Shown here: positions 17,212 through 62,942 of the stretch, one piece after another
How positions within the stretch are numbered: position 1 is the stretch's first letter
Layout: each line of letters starts with the position of its first letter
Assembly (NCBI GenBank): GCA_964016885.1
Contig: OZ024740.1
Location: 95,418,001-95,482,000, forward strand
Length of the DNA: 64,000 bases
Direction of reading: 5' to 3'
DNA from: Eledone cirrhosa
Lineage: Eukaryota
Notes under the pieces: generated by a model
Seen by the model: only the letters and a program-made list of their open reading frames with translations
Database searches by the model: none
What the model was told of the DNA's origin: nothing
Made by a program: the position numbers and the translations under genes

Positions 17212-17272
<61 letters not shown>

Positions 17273-17709: not shown

Positions 17710-21350
<3,641 letters not shown>

Positions 21351-24008: not shown

Positions 24009-24059
<51 letters not shown>

Positions 24060-24252: not shown

Positions 24253-27200
24253 GGGGATTCCTTCCTTTGTTTCTGTGCCTCTCCTTTGTTCTGTCCTACG
24301 CCATTTTGTTTCTGTGTGTGTGTTGTGTGCTCGGTTTGCGCATGCGCCACATCCGGGTGTCTGTGTGTCTTTATGTTCATTTATCTATTTGTTTATTTAT
24401 TTATTTATTTACATGTTATTGGTTGGTTGTTTGTTCTATGTGTGTGTGTGTTTTCATTTTGTCCTTAATTGTAAGTTGTGATGTTGCTGTTCCACTCATA
24501 TTTTCTATTTAATTTTGGTTGTAATTCTTTTATGTTTATTGCCTCTGTAATTTGTCTAAACATTGCATCTTTTCTGTGTGTAGATTCTATTTTTTTTCTA
24601 TGTTCTCTAATTTAACATTGTGTTCTATCTTAGCATGTTGGTAGAGTACAGATGATTCTTTATTACCTTGAAAGTCTCGCCAGTGTTCATTTATCAGTTC
24701 CCCTATACTACGAGATGTCTCACCTATGTACACTATATTTTTGTTTCTACATTGTCCTTCAGTACATCTTATGCTATACAATACATTTCTAGTTTTACAG
24801 TTAATATGGGGGCTTATTTTACAGGTTATACATTTCTTATCTATACATGAGGGTCTTTGAAAAGGGTATGTCTTGCTAATAAGTGTTTTTACAGAGGTAC
24901 CTGGTCTTTCTACTATCTTAATATTGAGTTTATGTTTATTTAGGTCCCTTCTAAATGTGTAGGCTAGTTCGCCTCTAGGGGTTGTATCGATGAACATTAC
25001 ACTCTGGTATTTATTGCTATCATACCATGAGTTTATTCTATTAGCCTTGTTCCTAGTTCTTTCTATTCTATTCCAAAATGCGCTCCTATACAAGGGGCAG
25101 GTCCCATTTATGTCATTATTTACCATTTTTTCACATTTGGTTCTGGCTCCTCTATACACTCTGATTCTATCTCTCTGATTGTAGCCAGAGAACTGCATAC
25201 GGTAGATGAAGTGTTGTATGTGTCTCTCTAGTTCTTCGGGGTTGCACATGCGGGACACATTTCTCATCACCCGTACCAAATCCGCAATCAGTATGTTGAT
25301 TTTGGTATGGTCCGAAATGGCCGAGTTTCGGTGGATCAGATGTTTGGAAGTCATGGGTTTGGCATAATGGGAATGGAGGATTTGTTTTTAATGGTATCTA
25401 ACCAGAGCTCTGTGTCTAGTACAGGTAATCGATGGTTGGGGTGTCTACTTGGGTAGTCTATAGTAACTCTAATGCTCTGGTGGATGGGGTTTGCTATTTG
25501 CTGGATGCTTTCGATTGTGTTTTTCTCTAGTTACTGACAGTTCTCTAGTGATGGTGTCTTAACTACGATGTGTATATCATCTGCGTAGCGGGAGTACATT
25601 ATCAGTGTTAAGCTGTCTTCTAATTGTTCTTTAAGTTTAAGTTTAAGTCTACTGTCCCACCATACCATGAATAAGTTAGCTATGTCGCCTGCAATGCTAA
25701 CACCAATGGCTGCTCCTTCCTCTTGGGCATATGTTTTTCCATTAAATTTGAACATAAGTTCCTTAAGGGTTCGTTTTATGCTGGCCCCTACCGCATGTGC
25801 AATCATTTTCTTCAGTTCATCGTGGATTTCGGGTGTCCATATGGGCTCTGGTCCACCCGTTCCATCTATCTGTGTGGGTTTTCTTGGCCATTGAGGAAAT
25901 GGTAGGTGGTCTGCCTCTTGCTGGTCTAGTAGGGCACAGGTTGCTAAGGTCATATGTGTCTAGGTAACTATTACTATAGGTAAGCTTAAGTAGAAGTCCC
26001 AGCTCACTGGTATCAATCCCACGGAAGTCAACCTTGCTCTCACTGATCATTTCTACGCATTTCTCCACAGCAAAATCCACGTCAATAGATGGATACAGGG
26101 ACACAACATCCATACTGCCTATTATGCAGTTTGTTAGGTCCCCAGATCGGTTACTCACGCCGATTCTGCTGAGGAGGTCCTCCGTGCTGTCACATACATC
26201 TGGGGACATTTCAATGATGGGGCGTATGATCAGGGAGAGGAAGTAGGACAGTCTGTAGTTACTAGCAATGTTGCAATGTTAGCCCCACAGACTGGCCGTT
26301 TTGGTGGTCCCGCGACATTTTATGGTCTTTTCGAAGCCCATACAACGCCGGCACGTCATTGTTCCAGGCCTGGAAGTTGTTGGCAGTCCTTTTGTTGGGC
26401 TGCATTATATTCGTCCACATCACCATATGGGCATTGAGGGCTTTTTCTCTATCCTCATGCTCCTGTGGTGTTACGTCTTTTGTGTTAGTGATGTGGGGTT
26501 GCATTGCCTGGATGTAGTTTGGCAGGCTGTCATCGACATTCTGCCAGAGTTGTCTGTTGGAAAGCATGCTATCTCTCCATTACGTGAGCGCTGCATGAGC
26601 TTACGCAAGCCATTTGCAGATTTTTCTTCCAGTTGCTGGGCCTCCATTCCATTATGCTTCTTGCTATACTGTTCTATAATATTTCTAAGTTCGGATCTAG
26701 CTATACTAAATTGTGCTTCTGTTTGTTCATCGACCTGCGACGGCAATTGCGTGCGTTTGTTAAATGGTAGAGTCGTGGCGTTGACTCGTCGCATGTCGAA
26801 TGATTTATCGGAGGGATTATAAAACGGAGAGTTCCAGGCTGCTGCTTTATGTGTACTAGTGCTATTGTTATTGTTAGTTGTGTTGTTTCTATTTCTATTT
26901 CCACCAACAGCCTCATGGTTGTTTCTATGTCTCTCATAATTACTCCTGTCTCTTTCCACTGGCTCATTGTTGTTATCTACCCTATTTTGTGTGTCTGTGT
27001 GTTCGTCTTGGTTATTCTCTTTGTCCTTAGTCTCCCTACTCCTTTTAATCCTATTACTTTCCCTTATCTCTGTGATTTCTGTGCTACTGTCATTACTTGT
27101 TTTCTGTGTCTGTGTGTTTGTTAAGATTGTGGTGGTGCTGAGAGGCATTGAATGCGTGTGTGTTGTTGTTGTTGATGTGCGCTGTTGTTGATGTGTGTTG

Positions 27201-28287
27201 TTGTTGTCTCCGTGTGTGTTATTGTTGTTGTGTGTGTTGTTATTGTTGTTTGTGTCTGCGTGCCTGTTGCTGTTGTTTCTGGGTATGTTGTTATTGTTGT
27301 TGTTGTTGATGTGTGTGTTGTTGTTATTGTTGTTTGTGTCTGTGTGTCTGTTGTTGTTGGGATATGTGTTGTATATGTTTGTGCGTATATTGTTGCTTTT
27401 GTTTTTGTTTTTGTTTTTGATGCACCAGCGTAGTTTTGTAAATGATTTTTTCTATTTCTGACAGACAACTAATCATATTTACCTTCTTGAATGTCGCAAA
27501 TTTCGGGGGCAAACACAACACAGACATCTCGTCATTATCTATTCTTGCGTTCCCATATATATTGGTGTTTTTGTTGTTGAACTCTTCTGTTAATGAGGTG
27601 TCGGCCATGTTTATACCGTCAATTTTGTCGGGATATCTATTGGTATTCTCTATAGTATCCTGATTTATCTTTATCTGTTCAAGCCACTTTAGTTTCCTGT
27701 TAAAGTGCTTACCACATTCTTGAGTAATGTACTGTTGTTCAGGGCGTATAAGGCTTATAAATATTAGTTTCTTTCTTGGTGTGGTGATCCTAGCTATTTC
27801 TTGTATTAGGTTACGCTTTTGTTTTTCTTGATGACTTAATTCTCTATAGATCTTCTTTTTTATGTTTAGAATTAATGTTCGTTTCAGCCTATCTGCTTGT
27901 TTTTTGGTGAGTTGTAATCTTCTAACATCGGTATTGATGGTGTTGGTGTAGATTCTGGATGAGGCACACTGCTTTATGAAGTGTAGTTGTCGAGATTTTA
28001 TGGTTTTTCGTAGACAACAGAACATGGTGGTTTTCAGTATCTTGTTAGCCTGGCTAAGGCTTACGATATTTCGTATCTGAATTTGTTTAGCAAGATACTT
28101 TATCTGAAATCGTGTGTTGAAACCGATATTGTTATACTTTGGGAGGCTCATGTAGTCAATAAGAAACACACGCACCAGTTGCTTTCACTTCAATTTATTA
28201 TATATTTATAAATTTACAAAGTTATAAATTCATAAATTTCTGGTTGGTTGGTTGGTTGGTTCCACAACCAGATAGTTGTTTATATAT

Positions 28288-28332
28288 AGTCATAGTCCTT
28301 TCGTCACACACTATGTGACTTCTTCAGTGACT
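28288..28332 (-). ncRNA. Minimal type I hammerhead ribozyme, ~110 nt upstream of the PLE ORF start
   Basis: agtca-CTGAAGA-a-gtcaca/tgtgac-GAAA-ggac-TA-tgact. Confidence 0.8.
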
Positions 28333-29470
28333 GGGGATTCCTTTCTTTGTTTCTGTGCCTCTGCTTTGTTCTGTCCTACGCCATTTTGTTTCTGTGTGTG
28401 TGTTGTGTGCTCAGTTTGCGCATGCGCCACATCCGGGTGTCTGTGTGTCTTTATGTTCATTTATCTATTTGTTTATTTATTTATTTATTTACATGTTATT
28501 GGTTGGTTGTTTGTTTTATGTGTGTGTGTGTTTTCATTTTGTCCTTAATTGTAAGTTGTGATGTTGCTGTTCCACTCATATTTTCGATTTAATTTTGGTT
28601 CTAATTCTTTTATGTTTATTGCCTCTGTAATTTGTCTAAACATTGCATCTTTTCTGTGTGTAGATTCTATTTTTATTTCTATGTTCTCTAATTTACCCTT
28701 GTGTTCTATCTTAGCATGTTGGTAGAGTACAGATGATTCTTTATTATCTTGAAGGTCTCGCCAGTGTTCATTTATCCGTTCCCCTATACTACGAGCTGTC
28801 TCACCTATGTACACTATATTTTTGTTTCTACATTGTCCTTCAGTACATCTTATTCTATACACTACATTTCTAGTTTTACAGTTAATATGGGGGCTTATTT
28901 TACAGGTTATACATTTCTTATCTATACATGAGGGTCTTTGAAAAGGGTATGTCTTGCTAATAAGTGTTTTTACGGAGGTACCTGGTCTTTCTACTATCTT
29001 AATATTGAGTTTATGTTTATTTAGGGCCCTTCTAAATTTGTAGGCTAGTTCGCCTCTAGGGGTTGTATCGATGAACATTACACTCTGGTATTTATTGCTA
29101 TCATACCATGAGTTTATTCTATTAGCCTTGTTCCTAGTTCTTTCTATTCTATTCCAAAATTTGCTCCTATACATGGGACAGGTCCCATTTATGTCAATAT
29201 TTACCATTTTTTCCCATTTGGTGCTGGCTCCTCTATACACTCTGATTCTATCTCTCTGATTGTAGCCAGAGAACTGCATACGGTGGATGAAGTGTTGTAT
29301 GTGTCTCTCTAGTTCTTCGGGGTTGCACATGCGGGACACATTTCTCATCACCCGTACCAAATCCGCAATCAGTATGTTGATTTTGGTATGATCCGAAATG
29401 GCCGAGTTTCGGTGGATCAGATGTTTGGAAGTCATGGGTTTGGCATAATGGGAATGGAGGATTTGTTTTT

Positions 29471-32249
29471 ACCATTTAACAAACGCACGCAATTGCCGTC
29501 GCAGGTCGATGAACAAACAGAAGCACAATTTAGTATAGCTACATCCGAACTTAGAAATATTATAGAACAGTATAGCAAGAAGCATAATAAAATGGAGGCC
29601 CAGCAACTGGGAGAAAAATCTGCAAATGGCTTGCATATGCTCATGCAGCGCTCACGTAATGGAGAGATAGCATGCTTTCCAACAGATAAGTCTGGCAGAA
29701 TGTCGGTTGCCAGCCTGCCAAACTACATCCTGGCAATGCAACCCCACATCACTAACACAAAAGACGTAACACCACAGGAGCATGAGGATAGAGAAAAATC
29801 CCTCAATGCCCATATGGTGATGTGGACGAATATAATGCAGCCCAACAAAAGGACTGCCAACAACTTCGAGGCCTGGAACAATGACATGCCGGCGTTGTAG
29901 TGGCTTCGAAAAGACCATAAAATGGGCTGTGACCCTGTCGCGGGACCACCAACACGGCCAGTCTGTGGGGCTAACATTGCAACATTGCTAGTAACTACAT
30001 ACTGTCGTACTTCCTTTCCCTGATCATACGCCCCATCATTGAAATGTACCCAGATGTATGTGACAGCACGGAGGACCTGCTCAGCAGAATCGGCGTGAGT
30101 AACCGATCTGGGGACCTAATAAACTGCATAATAGGCAGTATGGATGTTGTGTCCCTGTATCCATCTATTGACGTGGATTTTGCTGTGGAGAAATGCGTAG
30201 AAATGATCAGTGAGAGCAATGTTGACTTCCGTGGGATTGATACCAGTGAGCTGGGACTTCTACTTAAGCTTACCTATAGTAATAGTTACCTAGACACATA
30301 TGACCTTAGCGACCTGTGCCCTACTAGACCACAAGAGGCAGACCACCTACCATTACCTCAATGGCCAAGAAAACCCACACAGATAGATGGAACGGGTGGA
30401 CAAGAGCCATACGGACACCCGAAAACCACGATGAACTGAAGAAAATGATTGCACATGCGGTAGGGGCCAGCATAAAACTGTCCCTTAAGGAACATATATT
30501 CAAATTTAATGGAAAAACATATGCCCAAGAGGAAGGAGCAGCCATTGGTGTTAGCATTGCAGGCGACATAGCTAACATATTCATGGTATGGTGAGACTTA
30601 AACTTAAACTTAAAGAACAATTAGAAGACAGCTTAACCCTGATAATGTACTCCCGCTACGTAGATGATATAAACATCGTAGTTAAGACACCCCCACTAGA
30701 GAACAGCCAGGAACTAGAGAAAAACACAATGGAAAGCATCCAGCAAATAGAAAACTCCATCCACCAGAGCATTAGAGTTACTATAGACTACCCAAGTAGA
30801 CACCCCAACCATCGATTACCTGTACTAGACACAGATCTCTGGTTAGATACCATTAAAAACAAATCCTCCATTCCCATTATGCCAAACCCATGACTTCCAA
30901 ACATCTGATCCACCGAAACTCGGCCATTTCGGACCATACCAAAATCAACATACTGATTGCGGATTTGGTACGGGTGATGAGAAATGTGTCCCGCATGTGC
31001 AACCCCGAAGAACTAGAGAGACACATAAAACACTTCATCCACCGTATTCAGTTCTCTGGCTACAATCAGAGAGATAGAATCAGAGTGTATAGAGGAGCCA
31101 GAACCAAATAGGAAAAAATGGTAAATAATGACATAAATGGGACCTGCCCCTTGTATAGGAGCGCATTTTGGAATAGAATAGAAAGAACTAGGAACAAGGC
31201 TAATAGAATAAACTCATGGTATGATAGCAATACATACCAGAGTGTAATGTTCATCGATACAACCCCTAGAGGCGAACTAGCCTACAAATTTAGAAGGGCC
31301 CTAAAGAAACATAAACTCAATATTAAGATAGTAGAAAGACCGGGTACCTCCGTAAAAACACTTATTAGCAAGACATACCCTTTTCAAAGACCCTCATGTA
31401 TAGATAAGAAATGTATAACCTGTAAAATAAGCCCCCATATTAACTGTAAAACTAGAAATGTAGTGTATAGCATAAGATGTACTGAAGGACAATGTAGAAA
31501 CAAAAATATAGTGTACATAGGTGAGACAGCTCGTAGTATAGGGGAACGGATAAATGAACACTGGCGAGACCTTCAAGATAATAAAGAATCATCTGTACTC
31601 TAACAACATGCTAAGATAGAACACAAGGGTTAATTAGAGACCATAGAAATAAAAATAGAATCTACACACAGAAAAGATGCAATGTTTAGACAAATTACAG
31701 AGGCAATAAACATAAAAGAATTACAACCAAAATTAAATAGAAAATATGAGTGGAACAGCAACATCACAACTTACAATTAAGGACAAAATGAAAACACACA
31801 CACACATAGAACAAACAACCAACCAATAACATGTAAATAAATAAATAAATAAACAAATATATAAATGAATATAAACACACACAGACACCCGAATGTGGCG
31901 CATGCGCAAACTGAGCACACAACACACACACAGAAACAAAATGGCGTAGGACAGAACAAAGGAGAGGCACAGAAACAAAGAAAGGAATCCCCAGTCACTG
32001 AAGAGGTCACAGAGTGTGTGACGAAAGGACTATGACTATATATAAACAACTATCTGGTTGTGGAACCAACCAACCAACCAGAAATTTATAAATTTATAAA
32101 TTTGTAAATTTATAAATATATAATAAATTGAAGTGAAAGCATCTGGTGCGTGTGTTTCTTATTGGCAACATGACCCTCCCAAAGTATAAGAATATCGGTT
32201 TCAACACACGATTTCAGATAAAGAATCTTGCTAAACAAATTCAGAAACG

Positions 32250-34030: not shown

Positions 34031-34043
34031 ATATATATATATA

Positions 34044-34880
34044 TAGACTCCCTGATGACGCAATTAATTCTCGACAGTTAGATTACGTAACTGTCTTTAT
34101 CCCATTGCAGAAACTAATTAGTTGGAGTGAAAATTTAAGTAAGTAAGTAAAAAGTTAAAAAAACATTTTTTTAAAAAAGATTTTCTTATTTTACGTCTTT
34201 TATATTATTGTTCTGCATCCTCCTGCATTGAACCACCTAGGTACTATGACATAACCTGTGTATTTGCTGGCATAGGCGTGCATCTGTGCGCTTATGTTAG
34301 TTGATATATTAAATTATCTATATTTATCTCCAAATCACTGATTTGTCGAGCAAACCTGCCAAAACCACTTCTAAAAAAAATTTTTTTGGGGTGTGTTAGT
34401 AGGCATCTGTCATCTTACCATCCCATTCCTTCTGACTAGCCTCTGTGTCACGTGATTGATTCTTTAGAATCGGCCATTTGACTAGAGGCAGTGAGGATTT
34501 CAGTGCATGGAATTCAGTCCTCGCTAGCTGTTCCATCTACCGAATTATTATTATTTTTATATGAGCCGCCAGTGTCCGCGCATTGCCTGGAGACTTAGCT
34601 GAGAATAGACTCCCTGATGACGCAATGAATTCTCGACAGTTAGATTACGTAACTGTCTTTATCCCATTGCAGAAACTAATTAGTTGGAGTGAAAATTTAA
34701 GTAAGTAAGTAAAAATTAAAAAAATAATTTTTTTTTAAATATTTTCTTACTTTACGTCTTTTATATTATTGTTCTGCATCCTCCTGCATTGAACCACCTA
34801 GGTACTATGACATAACCTGTGTATTTGCTGGCATAGGCGTGCATCTGTGCGCTTATGTGAGTTGATATATTAAATCATCT
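34044..34880 (+). mobile_element. 562-bp tandem repeat (~1.5 units), one hammerhead per unit; retrozyme-like
   Basis: CTGATGA at 34052 and 34614; no ORF; flanked by (TA)n. Confidence 0.85.
34047..34128 (+). ncRNA. Type I hammerhead with extended stem II (second copy 34609-34690)
   Basis: actcc-CTGATGA-c-gcaat..[gacagtta/taactgtc]..attgc-a-GAAA-ctaattag-TT-ggagt. Confidence 0.85.
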
Positions 34881-34894
34881 CTCTCTCTCTCTCT

Positions 34895-40348: not shown

Positions 40349-40379
40349 CTATATATATATATATATATAATAACATAAA

Positions 40380-43300
40380 ATAAAATAGAATAAATAAGTC
40401 AAATGTACAAAAGTTTGCTTCGTTTATTACTGCTATATATATTTCGGTGACAGCCATATTTGGCTGGGACCTCTTCAGGCTGTCCGAATTAGTGTGGTAG
40501 AGAAGAGTACACATGTTATTGAGGTGTTTAACTTTGTCAATACTCTGATATGCCCAGTTCCTGGTTGGGGTGTTATTTCACTGAGGAACTGGAATCATAT
40601 GAATTTAAACAAACAAATTTCAGCGTCAAAGGACATCTTCTCCTCCCATTGGTCAGTTGTGAGAACATTCCTCAGTCAAAAGTCTATAGAAATTCATTCT
40701 TAGGAGAGGCAATCTGTAGTGGTTGTTCTTGGTATTGTGAAGTACATCTGACATCTACTCTTATGTTGGTAGTGGTGTTGTTGTTGGAGTCAGCTCAAAC
40801 AATGATAAAGTGGTAGAAGTAATAATATTGTAAAGGAACAAAATAAAATAAGATCATCAAATAAAATGTGCGTGTGTGTTATACCCACTCTCAATGTATG
40901 AAAGATGTGTAAGGTCACTCCTCCCATTCGACAGTTGTGAGAGCATTCCTCAGTCAAAAGTCTATATAATTTCTTTCTGGGGTGAGGCTACCTGTAGTGT
41001 TTGTTTTTGCTATTGTTAAGTACATCTGACCTCTACCCTTATTTTGGTAGTGGTGTTGTCATCTGTGGTCAGCCTAGGTTATGCTGCTGCTGACATTTAG
41101 AAGTATATGTGTGTGTTTCTTCATCCATCCTGCCACCATTTCTCGTGGTGGTGGTGTGTGTTTTGGGGTGGGGGTGGGCTGTGCCATGCATATGAAGAAA
41201 TAGAAGGCAATAAAATGAAGAAAACAGAAAATAAATTATATATAGAAAATAAATGAAAAATTAATGAAAAATGAAAAATGAAAAATAAAAATGAAGATTC
41301 AAATAAAATAAAATAAGTGTGTGCTATAACCAATCTCAAAGTCAGAAATATGTCCGATAAAGTGGGAGGAGGAACAAGATGGTAAAAAAATAAAACAAAA
41401 TAAGATAATCAAATAAAATGTGTGTGTGTTACAACCAATCTCAACGTTAGAAAGATTTGCAAGTTCACTCCTCCCATTGGTCAGTTTTGAGAGCATTTCT
41501 CAGTCAAAAATTTATAGAAATTCTTTCTGGGGTGAGGCTACCTGTAGTGTTTGTTTTTTCTATTGTTAAGTGCATCTGATCTCTACCCTTATTATGGTAG
41601 TGGTGTTGGTGCTGCGGTCAGCCTAGGTCTTGCTGCTGCTGACATTAAGAAGTATCTATTTGTGTTTTTTCATCCATCCTGCTACCATTTCTCGTGGTGG
41701 TGCCGGTTGAGGTGGTATTGGGTGTATGTGTGTTGGTGTCGTGCCATGCATATGAAGAAATCGAAGGCAATAAAATGAAGAAAACAGAAAACAAATGAAA
41801 CATAAAAAAATGAAGATTCAAGTAAAATAAAATGTGTGTTATAAAGATTTTGGCCAAATTAGAAAGGCTGTGTCAGAATCAATCTCTAGGCTATCATGGG
41901 GTCTGCTCAGCCTGGGTAGGTCCCTATGGCTTGAGGGCAGTTCCCAACCTATGCTGTTGTTACTGCCCATATAGCTTGAGGGAGGCACGGCCAAGAGGTG
42001 TCTACATGTTCTGGAAAAGTCCTTCTAGTTTGAGGGGTGTTCACATCTCAGTGTGTTGTTACTGTCCATATAGCTTGAGGAAGGTCCCGGCCCTGAGGTG
42101 TCTGCATGTCCCGAAGAAGTTGGTTCTGAGGTTTATCAGGCGGCTTCCACCACTTAGTATCTCGAGGGTCTCGTTCAGGTCTAGTTTGCATATGCCAGAT
42201 CGCCCTTTATCGGGTGGTACTTTCCTGATTATGGACCAGGCCAGAGAGTATGGGGTCCTGTCCAGCTTAAGCTTCCAGATCAGGTCGGAAAGAGATGAAC
42301 TTTTCGTTTCGGCCTCCTTATTGAAGGAATGGTGATGGTTATACCAACGGTCTTTAAAGCTCGTTGAAGTGGCTCCTATGTATAGGTGTTCGGAGTTGGG
42401 GGTTTAACCCTACATCCGTATATTAGGTTCTTCTTAAGGCATTGATTACTAAGGGGGCATGATTCGGGGTTTCTGCAGTTGCAGAGGGTGGTCGACCCCT
42501 GCGTGGCTAGTGTGGGGTTCCCGTTACGTCTTACATGGTGGTCTTCCTGCGGGCACGTGGGGGTCCCCGGGGTTGTTTGAGTTTCTTGGGTGGGCGCTGG
42601 TTGTCCCCTTCTCTCCTTCCACATGGCTCTGCTGGGTGCTTATATTGCCATCTTCTGGTTGTGTGTGGTTTTTAAGCCTACTCCTGTTGATGCTAGCTAT
42701 GTGTTGGGCCAGATTTCTCGCGGTGGAATAAGGGAATCATTTATCAAGTGCTCCAAAGAATGACCGGATAAAGCTCTTCGTTAGGGCCGCTGAGTAGGGT
42801 GGGTTGTACCACGTGATTTTTCTGCGTCTACTCCTATATGGGTGTGCTGGGGGCGTCGTGAGTTGTTGGAGAGTTGTTGGGTTGCTGGTGGTTCCCACAT
42901 TGTTGCTTCCTCTTTGGGCGCTATGAGTTTTGCTATCTTCACGGCTCGAATCTGTGGGGTGATTGTTTCCCGCGCTGGTGGATTCATTGTGGAGTGGTCC
43001 CCCGTTACAACCCCCACCCCTACGTGTCCTGCGGTTGGGGTTGTCGGGCCCGTGGTGGTTAGTATCACCCCTGAGACAGCTACTTTTGTTGGGTTTCTTC
43101 TCATGGTTAAACGTACTCGTCACCATCGCCAGTGTGGTGGTGTCGGGCTCATGGTGCTTAATTGTTCCTGTTCTGCCTGTTTTGTTAGGGTTCGCCCTCT
43201 CCCTGACAACGCGGGTGTGGGAGTCCGTTGGGCCATCCCCATCCCAGCGCCTCGGACTATATGTTATATGTTGTCCATGTGCCGCCTTATTTAGAGGTGC

Positions 43301-43450
43301 GTTGTAATATTCCGTGTTGTTATCGAAGATTTCATTATTTGCCGACAGACTGGAGATCCTGTCCGAGACACTCTTCACCACGGCCTTGGTTATGGATCTA
43401 GGGTGGTTTGACTGGGCGTTAACATACACAGGTTTCTTGCTGGGCTTGTG
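40380..43450 (-). mobile_element. Penelope-like element (family 1), 5'-truncated, with long sub-repeated 3' region
   Basis: YVNAQSNHPRSI..RISSLSAN; ITWYNPPYS; CNCRNPESCPLSNQCLKKNLIYGCRV..YIGATSTSFKDRWYNH; HHR at 40429-40483. Confidence 0.9.
40429..40483 (-). ncRNA. Type I hammerhead ribozyme (family 1)
   Basis: acagc-CTGAAGA-ggtcccagcc/ggctgtcacc-GAAA-tatata-TA-gcagt. Confidence 0.8.
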
Positions 43451-43466
43451 GTATGTATGGGCTTGT

Positions 43467-43512
<46 letters not shown>

Positions 43513-43534
43513 TATATTTATATATATATATATG

Positions 43535-44556
43535 TATAAAGATTTAGTATATCTAGTAACATATATATACACAGATGCATATTTATGTTAGTAAATATAT
43601 AGGTTTTGTCTTAGTAACTATGTGGTTCAATGCATGGGGTAGCAGAACAATAATATGAGAGACGTAAAATAAGAAAATTATAAAATTAACTTACTTACTT
43701 AAATTTCACTCCCAACTAATTAGTTTCTGAGATGGATTAAACGTACTATCCGAAGAGAGCACGGAGAAGCCTTTCGTCATCAGGGAAGTCTATTCTCAGC
43801 TAAGTTTCCAGGCAATACGTGGACACAGGGAACTTATACAAAAATAATTCAGTGGATGGAAAAAGCAAAGCGAGGACTAATTCCAAGCCATTGATAAAAT
43901 CACTGCCTACTGCGTCGGTGGCAAATTCAAAAGAATCAATCACGTGATATCGAGGTCAATCAGTGGATAGTGCTTTGTTAGTAAGACAGCAGCCGAAATG
44001 TTACTATAGCAGCAGTTTTGGCCATTTTTACTCGACAAATAATTTTGGAGATAATTATAAAGAATTAGTATATCTAGTAACATATATATACACAGATGCA
44101 TACTTATGTTAGTAAATATATAGGTTTTGTCTTAGTAACTATGTGGTTCAATGCATGGGGTAGCAGAACAATAATATGAGAGACGTAAAATAAGAAAATT
44201 ATAAAATTAATTTACTTACTTAAATTTCACTCCCAACTAATTAATTCTGAAAGGGATTAAACGTACTATCCGAAGAGAGCACGGAGAAGCCTTTCGTCAT
44301 CAGGGAAGTCTATTATCAGCTAGGTTTCCAGGCAATACGTGGACACAGGGAACTTATACAAAAATAATTCAATGGATGAAAAAAGCAAAGCGAGGACTAA
44401 TTCCAAGCCATTGATAAAATCACTGCCTACTGCGTCGGTGGCAAATTCAAAACAATCAATCACGTGACATCGAGGTCAATCAGTGGATAGTGTTTTGTTA
44501 GTAAGACAGCAGCCGAAATGTTACTATAGCAGCAGTTTTGGCCATTTTTGCTCGAC
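43535..44556 (-). mobile_element. 520-bp tandem repeat (~2 units), one hammerhead per unit; diverged homolog of 34044-34880
   Basis: TCATCAG at 43777 and 44297 (period 520); shares blocks gcattgaaccac, cacgtgattgattcttt, agtcctcgct, cttagctgagaatagact with the 34-kb unit. Confidence 0.85.
43708..43789 (-). ncRNA. Type I hammerhead with extended stem II (second copy ~44229-44309)
   Basis: Two-copy consensus acttcc-CTGATGA-c-gaaagg..[cgtgct..cttcgg..agtacg]..cctttc-a-GAAA-ctaattag-TT-gggagt; copy 1 has stem II mismatches, copy 2 has GAAT. Confidence 0.8.
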
Positions 44557-45079
44557 TGAGCCTTTTGAATATTAATAATAACATTTGATTCTTTTGCAGT
44601 TATGCAAACAAGCCTCAATGTTATAGCCACGTGATGAGAATGAACACTTTATTCTCGCTCATATGTTGGCACACGAACAGAACTGCAGTAACTAATGTTT
44701 CTGGGTATCACCCTTCATCAGTACAGTTCACTGTTCACCTGCCAAACTGTCAGTGCTAGTGAAAATATATGCTATTTTCAAAAATACACAGTGACTGCTC
44801 AGCCTGACCCGCTTATTAGCAGACTGGCTGATCAGTCAGATCTGCATATTAGCAGATCCACTGATCAGCCATATTTACATCTCAGCAGACTGGCCAGTCT
44901 GTTTCCTGTGTAGGATCGATAAATGACCGGCTTTGCCAAATTCAAATATAAAATAAAATGTCGCTCTACATGGCTGAACACAATAAATGTAACCTGAAAT
45001 TGTGTTTTTTTATTTTAATTTGGCAAAGCCGGCCATGCTTTTCCTCTTTTACGTTTTTTACCCTTTACAGCTACCAGCT

Positions 45080-54996: not shown

Positions 54997-55063
54997 GTGG
55001 AACACTGAGAGGTAATATACGTAGTGGTAGCGCACTCAGTCCAAGCATCGAGTTAGGTAGAAT

Positions 55064-57259
55064 TGGTTACACAACAGTTAGTTCACCTTACCGAGAACAA
55101 TTGTTTCACCTTCGCGGATCTTCAGCTCGGGATGTGTATGGTTATGGGAACAGGAAGGACAGCCGTACGAACGCGCATGCGCAGAAACTCGGTCACTTCA
55201 CACAGGCAATATTAAACTGCGTGCGGGAGGTGTAAGGGAGATAACTGCGAAAGTCCAGAAATATTTTAGGTTGAAAATAAAAAATAAAAAATTAATTTAA
55301 ACTACACAAATCAGTCCGGAACCTTGTAGTTATGCAATAGATGTTTGGTGACGTGTGGACAACGTGTGAAAAATGCACTTCTCGTGTTTATGCAATCACT
55401 ATTGCGTAATCTGTTTAGGATAGTTATTCGTTCTTCAATACATAAGCCACACGTCGGATTTCCCCTTGCGCATGGCTTGGAATTAGTCATGGATTTCCAT
55501 TGAATGGAGTAGCCTATACTTGAGTTCTTCAGGGACCATACGTGGCTCTCGAGTCTCATGGATGAACGTCTGTCCGGGTATCTGAAGATAGACTGGTGGT
55601 TCAGGAAACACTCCTTGAATCGGCCCTCCGCCATGCCCACATAGGATTTGACCTCTTGTGGTTCGTTACGTCGGTTGGTAGTGACCACAGCTTCATAGAT
55701 TACAGCTGGTGTGTTGCATTGCTGTTGAAGGGGCCAAGTTTCAGGCTTACAGCAACAGCACCCTGGTGGGGTGTTGCTCCTAGTGCTGCTGGTGATGTCG
55801 TCCTTCATGTTCATAACGCAGGAGTAACTAGTTTAAATTTGTGTCGGTTAAAGATGAAGCGGTATGTATGACCTAAGGGGAAGTGTCTATCTACGAGGGC
55901 TAGAAATGTTTTCCTACAGTGGTTTTAACGTTGAGTGAGAAGGTAGGAGAGAACCAGATAGTTTGTCTATTGATGCGCTTACTTTTCTTAATGGTGTTGT
56001 TGCTAGTGGGAGAGTAGGTTATAGGTTGTGAGAAGCCGCTGTTAGCCAACGTCGTGTTATAGTAGCGTGCCGCCCTGTCAAAGATATTAGAGGAGAGGTT
56101 TGAGATTCTAGTACTGATATTATTACCGAAGTTTCTAAGAAGTGTGGGAGGGTGGCATGTGTACTTGTGAATGTAATTAAGTTTCTCGTTTAGCTAATGG
56201 AAGGGTATGTAGGTGTGTGTGCGAAGGTCTAAATTAATGTCTAAGAAATCTACGCTAGTGAGTTTGGTGGCTAGTGTTATGCTAAGGCCTAACTCATTGA
56301 AGGTAGAAGCTAAGTCTTTTTTAAACCGGTCGAGGTGGTGACCACTTTTATGGCTCGATAATGTCAGTCCATCGTCACGGTATATTCCCGTGTGTAAGTC
56401 GGGGAATCTAACACGTAATATGTCTAAGATAAAAAGGCCAACCAAGTCACATACGTCAGCACTGTCAAACGATATTCACTGTCTAGCCCTCTTAGATAGA
56501 CACTTGCCCATAGGTCATAAATATCGCTCCATCTTTAACCAACACAAAGTTAAACTAGGTACTCCTGGGTAAAGAAAATGAAGGCCCACATCACCAACAG
56601 CCCTAGGAGCAACACCCCACCAGGGTGCTCTTGCCGTAAGCTTGAAGCTTGCCCGCTTCAACAGCAATGCACACACCAGCTGTAATCTATGAAGCTGTGG
56701 TCACTTCCAATCGACCAAACAAACCACAGGCGGTCAAATCCTATGTGGGCATGGCGGAGGGCCGTTTCAAGGAGCGTTTCCTGAACCACCAGTCTACCTT
56801 CAGATATCCGCGGACAGATGTTCATCCACGAGACTCGCGAGCCACGTATGGTCCCTCAAGGACTCAAGTATAGGCTACTCCATTCAATGGAAAACCATCA
56901 CTAAGTCCAAGCCATACGCAAGAGGAAATCCGACGTGTGGATTATGTATTGACGAACGAATAACTATCCTAATAGATTACGCAATAGTGATTGCCTAAAC
57001 ACGAGATGTGAATTTTTCACACGTTGCCCACACGTCACCAAACATCAACTACATCACTACACAGCTCTGGACTGATTCTGTGTAGTTTTACGTTTATTTT
57101 TTTTTATTTTTATTTTCAACCTAAAAACTTTCCGGATTTTCCGTATGCGCATTCGTACAGTTGTCCTTCCCCTTCCTATAACCGTACACATCCCTAGCTG
57201 AAGATCCGCAAAAATGAAACAATTGATCTTGGTATGGTGAACTAACTGTTGTGTAACCA
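55064..57259. mobile_element. Inverted pair of PLE (family 3) fragments: minus 55064-56469, plus 56478-57259
   Basis: GIYRDDGL and VDFLDINL (RT); VIYEAVV..YVGMAEGRFKERFLNH..CGLCIEER..CPH (GIY-YIG) in both orientations; HHRs at both outer ends. Confidence 0.92.
55091..55130 (-). ncRNA. Minimal type I hammerhead (degenerate mirror copy 57193-57232, +)
   Basis: ccgag-CTGAAGA-t-cc-gcgaa-gg-t-GAAA-caattg-TT-ctcgg. Confidence 0.85.
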
Positions 57260-57274
57260 CTTCTATATATATAT

Positions 57275-60200
57275 ATATAAAATAAATAAATCAAATGTTT
57301 AAATGTGGCTTCGTTTATTACTGCTATATATATTTCGGTGACAGCCATCTTTGGCTGTGACCTCTTTAGGCAGTCCGAATTAGTGTGGTAGAGACGAGTA
57401 CACATGTTGTTGAGGTGTTTAACTTTGTCAATACTCTGATATGCCCAGTTCCTGGCTGGGCTGTTATTTCACTGAGGAACTGGAATCATATGCATTTAAA
57501 CAAACGAATTTCAGCGTCAAATGACCTCTTCCCCTCTCATTGGTCAGTTGTTAGAACATTCCTCAGTCAAAAGTCTATAGAAATTCGTTCTGAGGCAAGG
57601 CAATATGTAGTGGTTGTTCTTGTTATTGTTAGGTACTTCTGACTTCTACTCATATGTTGGTAGTGGTGTTGTTGTTGGAGTCGGCTCAAAATAATGATAA
57701 AGTGGTAGAAGGAATAAGAGGGTAAAGGAACAAAATAAAATAAAATAATCAAATAAAATGTGTGTCTGTTATACCCATCTCAATGTTATAAAGATTTGTA
57801 AGGTTACTCTTCCCATTGGTCAGTTTTGAGAGCTTCCTCAGTCAAAAGCCGATAGAAATTCTTTCTGGGGTGAGGCTCCCTGTAGTGTTTGTATTTGCTA
57901 TTAAGTACATCTGACCTATACCCTAATTTTGGTAGTGTTGTTGTGGTCAGACTATGTCTTGCTGCTGCTGACATTTAGAAGTATCTGTGTGTGTGTTTCT
58001 TCATCTCTCATGTCACCATCTCTCGTCGTAATGGTGGTGGTGGTGGTGTATATGGTGGTGGTGTATTTGGTGGTGGTACCATGTATATGAAGAAATAGAT
58101 GGCAATAAAATGAAGAAAACAGAAAATAAATAATAAATAGAGAATATATGAAAAATTAATGAAAAAGTAATGAAAAATGAAAATGAAAAATGAAAAATGA
58201 AAAATGAAAAATGAAAAATGAAAATGAAAAGTGAAAAATAGGAATTAAGATTCTAATAAAATAAAATGTGTCTGTACTATAACCAATCTCAAGGTCAGAA
58301 AGATGTTGGATAAAGAGGTAGGAGGAACAAGATGATAAAATAATAAAACGGAGTAGGATAATCAAATAAAATGTGTGTGAGTTATAACCAATCTCAATTT
58401 AAATATAAATATAAGCCGATAAAATGAAGAAAACAGAAAACAAATAACACATGAAAAATGAAAAATCAAGTAAAATAAAATGTGTGTGTGTTATAAAGGT
58501 GTTGGCCAAATTAGAAAGGCTGTGTCAGAATCAATCTCAAGGCTATCATGGTGTCGGCTCAGCCTGGGTTGGCCCCTATGGATTGAGGAGACTTCACAAC
58601 CTATGGTGTTGTTACTGCCCATATCGCTTGACGGAGCTCTGGTCGAGACATGTCTACATATTCTGGAGAAGTCCCCATAGCTTGAGGGGTGTTCAGATCT
58701 TATTGTTTTGCTACTGTCCATATATCTTGAGGAAGGTCCTGGCCATGAGGTGTCTCCATGTCCTGAAGAAGTCGGTTCTGAGATTTATCAGGCGGCTTCC
58801 ACCTCTTAGTATCTCGTGGGTCTCGCTCAGACATAGTTTGCATATGCCAGATCCCAATTTATCGGGTGGCGCTTTCCTGATTATGGACCAGGCCAGAGAG
58901 TACGGGGCCCTATCCAGTTTAAGCTTCCAGATCATGTCGGAGAGAGCCGTACTTTTCCTTTTGGCCTTTTTATTGAAGGAATGGCGATGGTTATACCAGC
59001 GTTCCTTAAGGCTCGTTGATGTGCCTCATATGTAGAGGTGTGCGGAGTTGGGGGTTTTAACCCTACATCCGTATAGTAGCTTCTTCTTAAGGCATTCATC
59101 ACTAAGGGGGCATGATTCTGGGTTCCTGCAGTTGCAGAGGTTGGTCAACCTCTGCGTGCCTAGAGTGGGGTTCCTATTATGTGTTACATTGTAGGTCTTC
59201 CCCCGGGAACGGTCTGTTTGAGTTTCTTGGGTGGGCACTGGGTCTCCCTTCTCTACTTCCACATGGTTCTGCTGGGTGCTTGTATTGCCACTTTTATATT
59301 TATATTAAAGATGAGATTTGTTATACGCACACACATTTTATTTGATTATCCTACTTCGTTTTATTCTTTTACAATCTTGCACCTCCTACCACTTTATCCA
59401 ACATATTTCTGACCTTGAGATTGGTTATAGCACATTTTATTTTATTTGAATCTTCACTTTTATTTTTCACATTTCATTTTCATTTTTTCATTTTTCATTT
59501 TCATTTTTCATGACTTTTTCATTAATTCTTCATTTATTCTCTATTTATTAGTTACTTTCTGTTTTCTTCATTTTATTGCCTTCTATTTCTTCATATACAT
59601 GGCAGAAGCCCCTCCCACCACCACCACCACCACGAGAGATGGTGGCAGGAAGGATGAAGGAACACACAAACAGATACTTCTCAATGTCAGCAGCAGCAAG
59701 ACATAGGCCCACCACAACACCAACAACACTACCAAAATATATGTAGAGGTCAGATGTACTTAACAATAGCAAATACAAACACTACACGGAGCCTCAGCCC
59801 AAAAAGAATTTCTATCAACTTTTGACTGAGGAATGCTCTCAAAAATGACCAATGGGAAGAGTGACCATACAAATCTTTATAACATTGAGATGGGTATAAC
59901 ACACACACATTTTATTTGATTATTTTATTTTATTTTGTTCCTTTGTCCTCTTATTCCTTCTAACACTTTATGATTTTGTTGAGCCGACTCCAACAACAAC
60001 ACCACTACCAACATATGAGTAGAGGTCAGAAGTACCTAACAATAACAAGAACAACCACTAAATATTGCCTTGCCTCAGAACGAATTTCTATAGACTTTTG
60101 ACTGAGGAATGTTCTAACAACTGACCAATGAGAGGAGAAGAGGTCATTTGACGCTGACATTCGTTTGTTTAAATTCATATGATTCCATTTCCTCCGTGAA

Positions 60201-60395
60201 ATAACACCCCAACCAGGAACTGGGCATATCAGAGTATTGACAAAGTTAAACACCTCATCAACTTGTGTACTCGTCTCTACCACACTAATTCGGACTGCCT
60301 GAAGAGGTCACAGCCAAAGTGGCTGTCACGGAAATATATATAGCAGTAATAAACCAAGCCACATTTTAAACATTTGATTATTTATTTTATTTTAT
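57275..60395. mobile_element. Inverted pair of PLE family 1 3' fragments: minus 57275-59290, plus ~59292-60395
   Basis: GIY-YIG pieces 58711-59262; HHRs at 57320-57374 (-, core CTAAAGA) and 60294-60347 (+, intact core). Confidence 0.9.
60294..60347 (+). ncRNA. Type I hammerhead ribozyme (family 1)
   Basis: actgc-CTGAAGA-ggtcacagcc/ggctgtcacg-GAAA-tatata-TA-gcagt. Confidence 0.8.
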
Positions 60396-60503
60396 TTTAC
60401 ATTACACCGGAGTAACCAAAGCAATCTGCGCACCTCGTCGAGTGCTCCAACCTGCATACCAGGTGTTTGTATACAACCAAAACATACTCAAAATGTATAT
60501 ATA

Positions 60504-62029
60504 TTTTTATTACATGTTACCATGTGCTACCTGCAGTATTTTTCTCTATATTTTAATACATATATTTACCACTGCGATTCTGTGTTTTTCTCTCTCTCTC
60601 TTACTGTTCCCCCATTCTCTCTGTTTCTCCCCCTCTGTCTTGTCCGTTAACTCTTCCTCACACTTTCACTCACTCACTGTTTTTCTCCCTCTTCTCTTCA
60701 TTTCATCCTGCACTCACGAACGCTATTTTTTCTCTCTCGGCTCAATAGCCTTCGTTCATGCTGGTACTATTCTCTAAGCGCTCATATATTCACCTAGCTT
60801 ACGCTAAACAGAAACATTTTTGAAGCTTGTTTCTCCCCCACGGTATGCTATATTTTCTGTTGTTCTCCTGTCTCACTCACTTTACGCGTTTTAATTGTCC
60901 TAATAACTTATTTTGGTTATTATTGCACCGAAGTGAGATATATGATTTTTAATGCAATGAAATATCTATGATCTTCGGCAAATCACTGATGAGGGACTTA
61001 TTTTATTACATGTTACCATGTGCTACCTGCAGTACTTTTCTCTATATTTTAATACATATATTTACCACTGCGATTCTGTGTTTTTTTCTCTCTCTCTTAC
61101 TGTTCCCCCATTCTCTCTGTTTCTCCCCCTCTGTCTTGTCCGTTAACTCTTCCTCACACTTTCACTCACTCACTGTTTTTCTCCCTCTTCTCTTCATTTC
61201 ATCCTGCACTCACGAACGCTATTTTTTCTCTCTCTGCTCAATAGCCTTCGTTCGTGCTGGTACTATTCTCTAAGCGCTCATATATTCACCTAGCTTACGC
61301 TAAACAGAATAATTTTTGAAGCTTGTTTCTCCCCCACGGTATGCTATATTTTCTGTTGTTCTCCGGTCTCACTCGCTTTACGCGTTTTAATTGTCCTAAT
61401 AACTTATTTTGGTTATTATTGCACCGAAGTGAGATATATGATTTTTAATGCAATGAAATATCTATGATCTTCGGCAAATCACTGATGAGGGACTTTTTTT
61501 ATTACATGTTACCATGTGCTACCTGCAGTATTTTTCTCTATATTTTAATACATATATTTACCACTGCGATTCTGTGTTTTTTTCTCTCTCTCTTACTGTT
61601 CCCCCATTCTCTCTGTTTCTCCCCCTCTGTCTTGTCCGTTAACTCTTCCTCACACTTTCACTCACTCACTGTTTTTCTCCCTCTTCTCTTCATTTCATCC
61701 TGCACTCACGAACGCTATTTTTTCTCTCTCTGCTCAATAGCCTTCGTTCGTGCTGGTACAATTCTCTAAGCGCTCATATATTCACCTAGCTTACGCTAAA
61801 CAGAATAATTTTTGAAGCTTGTTTCTCCCCCACGGTATGCTATATTTTCTGTTGTTCTCCTGTCTCACTCGCTTTACGCGTTTTAATTGTCCTAATAACT
61901 TATTTTGGTTATTATTTCACCGAAGTGAGATATATGATTTTTAATGCAATGAAATATCTATGATCTTCGGCAAATCACTGATGAGGGACTTATTTTATTA
62001 CATGTTACCATGTGCTACCTGCAGTATTT

Positions 62030-62033
<4 letters not shown>
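60504..62033 (+). repeat. 496-bp tandem repeat, ~3.1 near-identical units, between TA runs
   Basis: Period from matching motifs at 60968/61464/61960; each unit carries GAAA-tatc-TA-tgat..atca-CTGATGA. Confidence 0.92.
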
Positions 62034-62068
<35 letters not shown>

Positions 62069-62942
62069 TAGAAAGGATGAATATAAAATGAAAGTGCTTT
62101 TTTTAAAAAAGGAATTTATTAGATATTTACATATGTCTCTGTAACAGACTGAGTACCTATGTATCGCTGCTTGCGTAATCATATAATGTTAGCAAGTATT
62201 CGATAGCAAATGTATAATCAGTTGTCACTTCTTCAGAGATTTTGGATAAATTGGATAAAATCAGAAAAATTGAAGTATTTATATTAGTAATAGAGGAAGA
62301 AACAGAGGGGATAGTATATGACAGATGGTAAATTAATTTACTGCTAAACAAGTATATAATGGGTTTCTAATGAGAATACCATGAGTAAATCTGAATAAGA
62401 ATTTTGGGAGTGCCAATTTTAATCTCTACTTGACCAACTGGACAGTGGGCAGGGCTGGTCATTTAGTGCAGTAGTATTAATTATAAAGTGTCAATCGAAA
62501 TCTCCCCCTTCCCCAATTGACACTTTATAATTAATACTAATGCACCAAATGACCAGCCCTGTCCACTGTCCAGTTGGTCAAGTAGAGATTAAAATTGGCA
62601 CTCTCAAAATTCTTATTTAGATTTACTCATGGTATTCTCATCAGAAACCCATTATATACTTGTTTAGCAGTAAATTAATTTACCATCTGTCATATACTAT
62701 CCCCTCTATTTCTTCCTCTATTACTAATATAAATACTTCAATTTTTCTGATTTTATCCAATTTATCCAAAATCTCTGAAGAAGTGACAACTGATTATACA
62801 TTTGCTATCGAATACTTGCTAACATTGTATGATTACGCAAGCAGCGATACATAGGTATTCAGTCTGTTACAGAAACATATGTCAATACCTAATAAATTCC
62901 TTTTTTAAAAAAAGCACTTTCATTTTATATTCATCCTTTCTA
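62069..62942. repeat. Long inverted repeat, ~427-bp arms, 20-bp spacer
   Basis: Arms 62069-62495 and 62516-62942, few mismatches; mirror ORFs 62157-62351(-) and 62660-62854(+). Confidence 0.95.
62771..62888 (+). ncRNA. Candidate hammerhead with ~90-nt rod-like stem II (mirror copy 62123-62241, -)
   Basis: CTGAAGA (62775)-a-gtgaca-actga..tcagt-c-tgttac-a-GAAA (62872)-catatg-TC; stem I poorly paired. Confidence 0.55.

What the first reader, a model, noticed from the sequence alone, without database searches (positions are those of the whole stretch)
43535..44556. Diverged 520-bp sister family shows compensatory changes across the extended hammerhead
Seen: homologous to the 34-kb unit, but stem II has a different sequence with the same fold. 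gcaat/attgc becomes gaaagg/cctttc, and the distal hairpin gacagtta/taactgtc becomes cgtgct/agtacg capped by cUUCGg. Stem I actcc/ggagt becomes acttcc/gggagt. CTGATGA-C, A-GAAA and ctaattag-TT are kept in copy 1. Inference: selection maintains the long stem II as a structure (tertiary contact or protein-binding/RT-recruitment module). The two copies carry different lesions, so the consensus is intact.
Basis: partly seen in the sequence, partly recalled or inferred. Interest (0 to 1): 0.85.

Follow-up and report, generated by a model that had tools for sequence, protein, structure and literature searches.

The report
Retrozyme hammerhead with a kissing pseudoknot
This is a two-unit copy of a protein-free repeat of about 520 bases, present over ten thousand times in an animal genome and likely copied by a Penelope-type retrotransposon, whose predicted self-cutting hammerhead RNA has an unusually long arm with a loop that stays complementary to a neighbouring strand as both change and so likely braces the active fold.

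Summary
The element (43535-44581, minus strand) holds two 521-bp units, each with a type I hammerhead motif. It belongs to a dispersed superfamily of 483-570 bp units, with over 12,000 exact motif hits against near-zero controls. The stem II helices covary across subfamilies. The distal hairpin is free in sequence and length; the constrained part is the internal loop. Its 5' strand (UUCUC) is complementary to a strand just upstream of stem I (GAGAA). The two change together (GAAAA/UUUUC, GGAAAA/UUUUCC, GAGAAG/CUUCUC, UGAAAAGA/UCUUUUCA), and blind predictions held in 11 of 12 evaluable loci. The largest F subfamily carries a mismatch there. Helix III is always palindromic, which predicts cleavage as a dimer. 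Copies end at two fixed sites joined to (TA)n, and 26 of 31 inverted copies use one site per arm, none the same site twice: a Penelope-type tail signature. The best reading is a non-autonomous Penelope-type retrozyme, a known class, with a hammerhead architecture I did not find described and that Rfam misses. Cleavage, expression and the autonomous partner are not shown. Both window copies are damaged.

The parts
43535..44581 (-). Whole insertion: 1047 bp, two tandem units, 5'-truncated, with its 3' end at the distal fixed site joined to (TA)n
43714..44234 (-). 521-nt monomer between the two predicted cleavage sites (after 44235 and after 43714)
   Evidence: cleavage positions inferred from the hammerhead consensus
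43708..43800 (-). Downstream hammerhead copy: intact core and helix III palindrome, 2 of 6 IIa pairs broken (43729-43734)
43793..43797 (-). GAGAA strand 5' of stem I, predicted partner of the stem II internal loop
43764..43768 (-). UUCUC, the 5' strand of the stem II internal loop, covarying with GAGAA
43742..43763 (-). Distal hairpin of stem II (UUCG cap in this subfamily); its sequence and length vary between subfamilies
43735..43741 (-). U-rich 3' strand of the internal loop; possible third strand, untested
43714..43728 (-). GAAA plus the 10-nt palindromic helix III and the UU cleavage site
44229..44320 (-). Upstream hammerhead copy: intact IIa, damaged GAAA/helix III start and a changed kissing strand
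43653..43662 (-). Proximal fixed 3' end site, 61 nt after the cut (also 44174-44183); used by inverted arms elsewhere in the genome
43535..43544 (-). Distal fixed 3' end site, 179 nt after the cut (also 44056-44065); the 118 nt between the two sites is the tail
43991..44023 (-). Second conserved hairpin region downstream of the distal end site (also 44511-44543); candidate RT-binding element, weakened in these two copies
   Evidence: function inferred
43934..43947 (-). Conserved E-box-like motif (also 44454-44467), possible internal promoter element; the label is recalled and untested
43471..43534 (.). (TA)n target tract at the 3' junction
34043..34891 (+). Sister-subfamily insertion (562-bp unit, two hammerheads, ending at its own distal site)

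Best explanation
This is a copy of a dispersed, protein-free tandem repeat, likely a non-autonomous Penelope-type retroelement (non-LTR retrozyme), whose units each carry a predicted type I hammerhead in which the internal loop of a long stem II is complementary to, and covaries with, a 5-7 nt strand just upstream of stem I, likely forming a pseudoknot that holds stems I and II side by side in the active fold. SHOWN: copy number, tandem and inverted layouts, two fixed 3' ends on (TA)n, scattered 5' ends, covariation in IIa, the distal helix and the kissing helix, and a palindromic helix III in every subfamily seen. INFERRED, in order: (1) read-through or an internal promoter gives multi-unit RNA; (2) two hammerheads pair through the palindrome into a long helix III and cut, while a lone hammerhead would stay off because the 3' half of the palindrome can pair with the CUGAU core; (3) a host ligase would close the monomers into circles; (4) a PLE endonuclease-RT nicks (TA)n and primes at one of two internal AU-rich sites, 61 and 179 nt past the cut, copying round the template to give tandems; (5) priming on both target strands, one at each site, would give the head-to-head copies with a tail on one arm only.
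For: Copy number: 9,351 hits vs 6 control, plus 2,845 vs 0 for the E/F/G clade. No ORF of 120 aa or more lies within the unit. Covariation: IIa and distal helix. Kissing helix among 247 hammerheads: 134 GAGAA(U/C) copies have UUCUC and none UUUUC (6 other), while 13 of 13 GAAAA-type A/B-clade copies have UUUUC. A WC helix of 5 bp or more forms in 70% of copies vs 11% with shuffled loops. Genome-wide, only 142 GAGAA copies have UUUUC, a G.U pair, and at most 113 GAAAA hits have UUCUC against 868 GAAAA copies (the patterns differ slightly). The G-C to A-U change arose once in the A/B clade and again in the E/F clade. Predictions noted before fetching held for the 6-nt core in 11 of 12 evaluable loci of 13. 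Palindrome duplexes are -9.0 to -16.6 kcal/mol against hairpins of 0 to -2, and the monomer MFE sequesters the core. Ends: all 53 distinct elements mapped have an arm ending at a fixed site; 26 of 31 inverted elements use one site per arm and none uses the same site twice. One array has 8 units of 483 nt with 1 variable column. Precedent: pseudoknot-stabilised hammerheads (PMC3088659, passages), palindromic dimer PLE hammerheads (PMC4209133, parts 1-2), two internal RT starts and extension of both strands (PMC11167929, parts 1-2), retrozyme circles closed by RtcB (PMC7229834, parts 2-4).
Against: There is no cleavage or expression evidence. No autonomous partner was found among 155 loci. The commonest F subfamily has an A.G mismatch in the kissing helix (36 of 46 copies with that loop; duplex only -2.3 kcal/mol). 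One blind prediction missed (L259, G.U kept), and the outermost base was right in only 5 of 12. The upstream strand also reaches 5 bp with the 3' loop strand in 40 of 247 copies, so composition contributes. For two subfamilies the MFE uses the same pairing as a core-enclosing hairpin instead. The A/B clade has a C.A pair next to the core and a UU cleavage site, both expected to be slow (recalled). 8 of 9 Xenopus retrozyme dimers did not cleave in vitro (preprint 10.64898/2026.07.22.740005, parts 1-3). Frangieh et al. report priming without homology to the target, whereas both ends here are AT-rich and match the target. The loci were chosen by queries ending at the distal site, which biases the main arm but not the second arm.
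Confidence: 0.7

Rival explanations
1. The covarying pairing is real but is an inhibitory alternative hairpin that encloses the CUGAUGA core during transcription and delays folding; it is not a tertiary brace.
For: The MFE folds of the D1 (L071) and F (L179) copies pair the upstream strand with the loop around the core, in place of stems I and IIa. A retrozyme circle needs some block on cleavage (PMC7229834, discussion).
Against: The loop is unpaired in the consensus fold while IIa and stem I covary, so all three can coexist. The MFE of the A and B copies keeps IIa. The spacing from the core fits parallel stems I and II, as for known pseudoknots (PMC3088659).
Confidence: 0.15
2. The hammerhead does not make the transposition template. 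Copies are reverse-transcribed from uncut multi-unit transcripts, and the ribozyme serves another step, such as trimming, turnover or RNA pairing.
For: 5' ends are scattered with no pile-up at the cut, and arms cross the cut site several times. In L045 both arms share a stem-I-breaking variant only in their last unit. Hammerhead mutants did not affect insertion in vitro for a Poseidon element (PMC11167929).
Against: Near-identical 8-unit arrays, and private variants shared across all units of some elements, fit copying round a circle. L045 is a single case and could be gene conversion. The test overall was inconclusive.
Confidence: 0.35
3. The long stem II is a protein-binding or RT-recruitment module.
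For: The U-rich 3' loop strand is conserved without a known partner. One PLE hammerhead needs its protein to cleave (PMC11167929).
Against: The distal hairpin is free in sequence and length. The loop sequence changes in step with an RNA partner. A separate conserved hairpin sits downstream of the priming sites.
Confidence: 0.1
4. The units are a dead satellite, and the apparent covariation reflects a few ancestors.
For: Related sequences inflate covariation counts, and only 27 of 49 B copies are fully intact.
Against: Copies are dispersed at 93-98% identity with unrelated flanks. Four pair types occur at one IIa position. The kissing change recurs in separate clades.
Confidence: 0.04

Closest known systems
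Metazoan non-LTR retrozymes (Cervera and de la Pena 2020, PMC7229834; Li et al. preprint 10.64898/2026.07.22.740005)
   Same: Short protein-free tandem units, one type I hammerhead per unit, GC below 50% (34-38%), dispersed in thousands, co-occurring with autonomous PLEs.
   Different: The units are longer than the usual 150-450 bp (within the preprint's 51-972 bp). They show a 47-55 nt stem II with an internal loop and a WC kissing contact, in place of the canonical loop 1-loop 2 contact. They also have two fixed 3' ends and frequent inversions, which the parts I read do not describe.
Minimal hammerheads of PLE pseudo-LTRs (Cervera and de la Pena 2014, PMC4209133)
   Same: Type I, an extra nucleotide after position 9, short helix I, palindromic helix III, many subfamilies with compensatory changes.
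   Different: Helix II there is 6-8 bp with a terminal loop, and no tertiary contact is described. Here there is also an extra base before GAAA, a longer palindrome (8-11 nt) and no linked ORF.
Pseudoknot-stabilised hammerheads, including the human C10orf118 type I ribozyme (Perreault et al. 2011, PMC3088659)
   Same: A 5-7 bp Watson-Crick contact between stem I and stem II regions in place of non-canonical loop contacts (about 40% of their set).
   Different: Here the partner is an internal loop closed by a further hairpin, and it is combined with a dimer-type helix III in a high-copy animal retroelement.
PLE insertion anatomy and non-autonomous Chlamys such as MRC1 (Craig et al. 2021, PMC8557442; Frangieh et al. 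2024, PMC11167929)
   Same: 5' truncation, partial tandems, inverted 5' copies, microsatellite targets, a tail at one end only, two RT start sites downstream of the hammerhead.
   Different: The tail is 106-122 nt rather than 30-40 bp, both ends match the (TA)n target, and no autonomous relative was found.
ENE triple helices (PMC12501189, passages)
   Same: A pyrimidine/U-rich internal loop flanked by helices that captures a purine-rich strand.
   Different: The captured strand is a short internal GAGAA/GAAAA 5' of the loop, not poly(A). The third strand shows no covariation here.

Membership tests
Type I hammerhead ribozyme | Core CUGANGA and GAAA with U16.1-H17 | tested here: met
   45 of 49 (core), 41 of 49 (IIa plus GAAA) and 43 of 49 (helix III plus UU) B copies; one of the two window copies has lost GAAA
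Type I hammerhead ribozyme | Three helices, open ends in stem I | tested here: met
   RNAalifold consensus of 36 copies; pair counts
Type I hammerhead ribozyme | G10.1-C11.1 pair directly flanking the core | tested here: inconclusive
   The flanking pair is C.A in 165 of 247 copies (with G-C one step out), G-C in 57, others in the rest
Type I hammerhead ribozyme | Self-cleavage at H17 | not testable with these tools
   needs in vitro transcription or RNA ends
Rfam hammerhead families (RF00163 and clan) | Score against the curated models | tested here: not met
   0 hits at gathering score in the window; no hammerhead-family hit at the known motif positions in 5 loci at E up to 5
Non-LTR retrozyme | Tandem non-coding units, each with a type I hammerhead, dispersed | tested here: met
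Non-LTR retrozyme | Expressed as linear and circular monomer RNA | not testable with these tools
   no RNA holder listed
Non-LTR retrozyme | Highly self-paired monomer circle | tested here: inconclusive
   circular MFE z = -1.2 for this subfamily, -2.2 to -6.4 for four others, 40 shuffles each
Non-LTR retrozyme | Target-site duplications | tested here: inconclusive
   ends lie in (TA)n tracts
Non-autonomous Penelope-like element | 5' truncation, tandem and inverted copies, tail on one end, microsatellite target | tested here: met
   53 elements mapped, 26 of 31 inversions asymmetric, none symmetric; tail longer than published
Non-autonomous Penelope-like element | Homology to the pLTR of an autonomous PLE | tested here: inconclusive
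   not found in 155 loci, in 40 loci of one young Neptune-type family, or by eye in the published Naiad_Ovul consensus; most PLE families of the genome were not examined
PLE minimal hammerhead | Helix II of 6-8 bp with a terminal loop | tested here: not met
   core-to-GAAA span 41-55 nt with an internal loop
PLE minimal hammerhead | Palindromic helix III and an extra base after position 9 | tested here: met
   palindromes differ between clades and stay self-complementary or nearly so
ENE triple helix | U-rich third strand forming triples with the captured purine strand | tested here: inconclusive
   the 3' loop strand is U-rich but does not change when the kissing pair changes

The most novel reading that the evidence does not exclude
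A new hammerhead architecture in which an ENE-like triple helix (kissing pair plus the U-rich loop strand) replaces the loop-loop contact, and the palindromic helix III doubles as an RNA dimerisation signal that delivers two template RNAs to a dimeric Penelope RT, one priming at each fixed site on opposite target strands, which would explain why inverted copies always carry the tail on one arm only.
Probability: 0.15. Interest if true: 0.85.

Novelty: new variant of a known kind. Interest (0 to 1): 0.58.

Why it matters
The class is known, but this family gives what PLE and retrozyme work has lacked: natural compensatory variants that specify a tertiary contact to mutate. PLE-type hammerheads cleave poorly in vitro, and minimal constructs may have left such contacts out; this motif says to include the 15 nt upstream of stem I. 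More than 12,000 motifs in one genome escape Rfam, so ribozyme counts based on short-stem descriptors may miss whole families. The strict one-site-per-arm rule in inverted copies is a genome-scale constraint on how PLE proteins prime both target strands, a question still open after the first in vitro study.

Tried and rejected
(1) The PLE RT fragment next to the element (42740-43468) as part of it: rejected. A (TA)n tract separates them and other copies have unrelated flanks. (2) A Neptune-type PLE as partner, suggested by direct adjacency in L137: rejected. Only 1 of 30 F loci showed it, the related copy in L132 ends before that point, and the young 784-aa family has no such hammerhead. (3) Naiad as partner, prompted by 'HHR_half_core' entries with (TA)n targets in the Craig supplement: two short family motifs were absent from that supplement file, and Naiad_Ovul showed no likeness by eye; the other half-core entries were not read. 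(4) Circle versus linear template from shared private variants: inconclusive. (5) Two separate origins of the A-U kiss within the A/B clade: not supported. They form one clade (98/94), and the significant AU test only reflects one nested copy with a mutated strand. (6) Metagenome pattern scan: 0 hits. (7) Expression: no RNA holder listed. DNA runs of coded organisms A, B and C hold diverged relatives, the last with only 2 contigs. (8) The loose pattern gave fewer hits (102) than its reversed control (497); it was used only to find new subfamilies. (9) The sigma-70 scan was at background and is not relevant to an animal. (10) Earlier scan findings: none returned. (11) Lunse et al. 2017 on PLE hammerhead variants is not held and was seen only through a review (PMC6765202, passages); it could describe a similar variant. 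Supplements of PMC4209133 and PMC7229834 were not opened, and those of the preprint are closed.

Full report
OBSERVATION. The window lies in a 3.0-Gb genome at G000:C1:95418001-95482000 and is rich in microsatellites and PLE fragments. The finding is on the minus strand. It has two tandem units, 95.4% identical, with 71% identity to the unit at 34 kb. The period between predicted cleavage sites is 521 nt, against 562 for the sister, and the insertion spans 43535-44581. The copy cut at 43714 has an intact core but two of six stem IIa pairs broken. The copy cut at 44235 has lost part of GAAA/helix III and has a change in the upstream GAGAA. In 49 B-type copies from other loci each feature is intact in 41-47 and all features in 27, so the family majority is intact and the window copies are decayed. 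Rfam finds nothing at gathering score and no hammerhead at these sites even at E up to 5.

A LARGE FAMILY. DNA searches of the own genome gave 3,058 and 2,633 candidates, with the best copies at 93-98% identity on many contigs. A motif pattern matched 9,351 times against 6 for the reversed control. A pattern excluding the two window subfamilies matched 3,963 times against 0. A more distant clade (families E, F, G; about 484-bp units, different stem I and palindrome) matched 2,845 times against 0. Monomers cut from tandem copies are about 480-570 bp; A/B-clade representatives are 70-90% identical to each other (one disrupted monomer aside) and about 44% identical to F. The unit has no ORF of 120 aa or more. 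Diverged relatives occur in DNA runs of coded organisms A and B, and barely in C.

STRUCTURE. On 36 A/B-clade copies chosen to span subfamilies, RNAalifold recovers stems I, IIa, a distal helix, helix III and an outer stem Ib. With the named structure, 91% of cells pair against 31-52% for slid partners. IIa pairs in 98%, with A-U, U-A, G-C and C-G all seen at one position. All six distal pairs have two-sided changes, but the distal helix pairs in only 80%. Related copies inflate such counts, so they are not probabilities. The distal hairpin varies in sequence and length (core-to-GAAA span 41-55 nt). The pair next to the core is C.A in 165 of 247 copies, G-C in 57, and other combinations in the rest.

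THE KISSING CONTACT. The conserved part of stem II is the internal loop. Its 5' strand UUCUC is complementary to GAGAA, 2-3 nt upstream of stem I. Subfamilies with GAAAA upstream have UUUUC. Among 247 hammerheads with an intact upstream anchor, the class table is almost diagonal: GAGAA(U/C) with UUCUC 134, with UUUUC 0, other 6; GAAAA types with UUUUC 13 of 13. A WC helix of 5 bp or more forms in 70% of copies against 11% with shuffled loops, and in 40 of 247 with the other loop strand. Genome-wide, GAGAA with UUUUC (G.U) occurs 142 times, including small groups of like copies. GAAAA with UUCUC occurs at most 113 times against 868 GAAAA copies, mostly as scattered copies or cases where GAAAA lies inside GAGAAAA. 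A tree built without these columns puts the A-U subfamilies in one clade (98/94), so this is one event in the A/B clade. The E/F clade shows UGAGAAA/UUUCUCA, GAGAAG/CUUCUC and UGAAAAGA/UCUUUUCA, a second origin. I wrote predictions from loop sequences alone before fetching 13 loci. One was truncated, 11 had the predicted 6-nt core (including GGAAAA/UUUUCC in family G), and one missed but kept a G.U pair; the outermost base was right in 5 of 12. Against this reading, the largest F subfamily has an A.G mismatch in the helix (36 copies, with 10 showing U.G there), and two subfamilies fold the same pairing as a core-enclosing hairpin in the MFE. Pseudoknots between stems I and II are known to be needed for fast cleavage in other hammerheads (PMC3088659, passages), so I read this as the same device placed on an internal loop. 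That is inference.

DIMER GATE. Helix III is a palindrome or near-palindrome in all subfamilies seen. As duplexes these give -9.0 to -16.6 kcal/mol, and as hairpins 0 to -2. In the monomer MFE of the A and B families, the 3' half of the palindrome pairs with the CUGAU core, which would keep a lone hammerhead off. This matches published dimer-type PLE hammerheads (PMC4209133, parts 1-2).

INSERTION ANATOMY. Mapping 60 loci (53 distinct elements after removing 7 overlaps) shows two fixed 3' ends, 61 and 179 nt past the cut in B and 82 and 204 in A. They are AT-rich and joined to (TA)n, while the 5' ends are scattered. Family F shows the same two ends 106 nt apart. Of 31 head-to-head elements, 24 have one arm at each site exactly, 2 nearly so, 5 have a short arm ending elsewhere, and none uses the same site twice. 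The queries favour a distal end on the main arm but do not constrain the second arm. This is the PLE tail-at-one-end pattern (PMC8557442, passages). It fits two internal RT starts with extension of both target strands (PMC11167929, parts 1-2), though the tail here is three to four times longer and the ends match the target. Arms cross the cut site repeatedly, so the template is either a ligated circle or an uncut multimer. An 8-unit array with one variable column fits a circle. L045, with a last-unit variant in both arms, fits a multimer or gene conversion. The overall test was inconclusive. A second hairpin downstream of the distal site recurs in all clades and is my candidate for RT binding.

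PARTNER. Not found. Of 155 hammerhead loci, PLE reading frames within range were separated from the hammerhead by a TA run of 14 bp or more, except in two loci that involve different PLE families. The Neptune adjacency in L137 was a single-locus coincidence. The young Neptune-type family (150 scored hits at 94% or more) lacks this motif. The published Naiad_Ovul consensus did not resemble it by eye.

COMPARISON AND VERDICT. It works like a non-LTR retrozyme, a class described with circles and RtcB ligation (PMC7229834, parts 2-4) and recently tied to PLE pLTRs (preprint 10.64898/2026.07.22.740005, parts 1-3). Membership by layout is met; expression and cleavage are untested. Nine full-text searches returned no paper whose listing or read passages describe an internal-loop kissing hammerhead in such elements. 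Lunse et al. 2017 could not be read and several supplements were not seen, so novelty of the architecture is provisional. Verdict: real, selected, a new variant of a known kind; interest 0.58.

Noticed in passing
window 24051-26769, 28066-29471, 29470-32195 and 18387-20642: Several copies of a PLE family (RT and GIY-YIG remnants) with a short hammerhead motif at 24219, 28299 and 31998, in direct and inverted arrangement.
   Followed up: no
window 40376-43468, 57277-60399 and 55058-57265: Further PLE fragments with their own hammerhead motifs (for example 40442-40478, 60299-60334, 55104-55125, 57198-57219). They have palindromic helix III and an extra base on both sides of stem II, like the motif studied.
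   Followed up: partly
L169-L178; G000 hits: A very young, abundant Neptune-type PLE (clade label inferred from a Cys-rich RT-EN linker) with many intact 784-aa frames. Its 3' UTR seems to hold a degenerate U3-A8 hammerhead-like motif, seen by eye in L170 near 6200-6265.
   Followed up: partly
L137 about 7685-7720 (minus) and L132 about 2640-2675: A U3-A8 core-variant minimal hammerhead with a CCGG palindrome in the 3' UTR of an older Neptune-type PLE.
   Followed up: no
window 43689-43699 and 44214-44220, and the homologous place in the E and F families: A conserved AGUAAGU 15-20 nt after the cut resembles a 5' splice site (label recalled). In the A/B clade it pairs with an upstream ACUUA without two-sided changes. 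PLEs retain introns, and its role is unexplained.
   Followed up: partly
window 60505-62055 and 62066-62945: A 496-bp tandem repeat (3.1 copies, 98% identical) followed by an 880-bp near-perfect inverted repeat; no hammerhead core was seen in them by the loose scan.
   Followed up: no
window 14377-15345 and 16246-17213: Two copies of a C-terminal fragment that looks like a restriction-like-endonuclease non-LTR element (label recalled).
   Followed up: no
L138 (G000:C9:18427000-18436500) and L270 (G000:C2:312660300-312667600): Long local arrays of the unit with shared variants in subsets of units, suggesting later DNA-level duplication.
   Followed up: partly
window 7100-7668 and 9562-10139; L121 about 5180-5350: Very short inverted hammerhead-bearing repeats inside TA tracts, possibly another tiny non-autonomous PLE family.
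   Followed up: no
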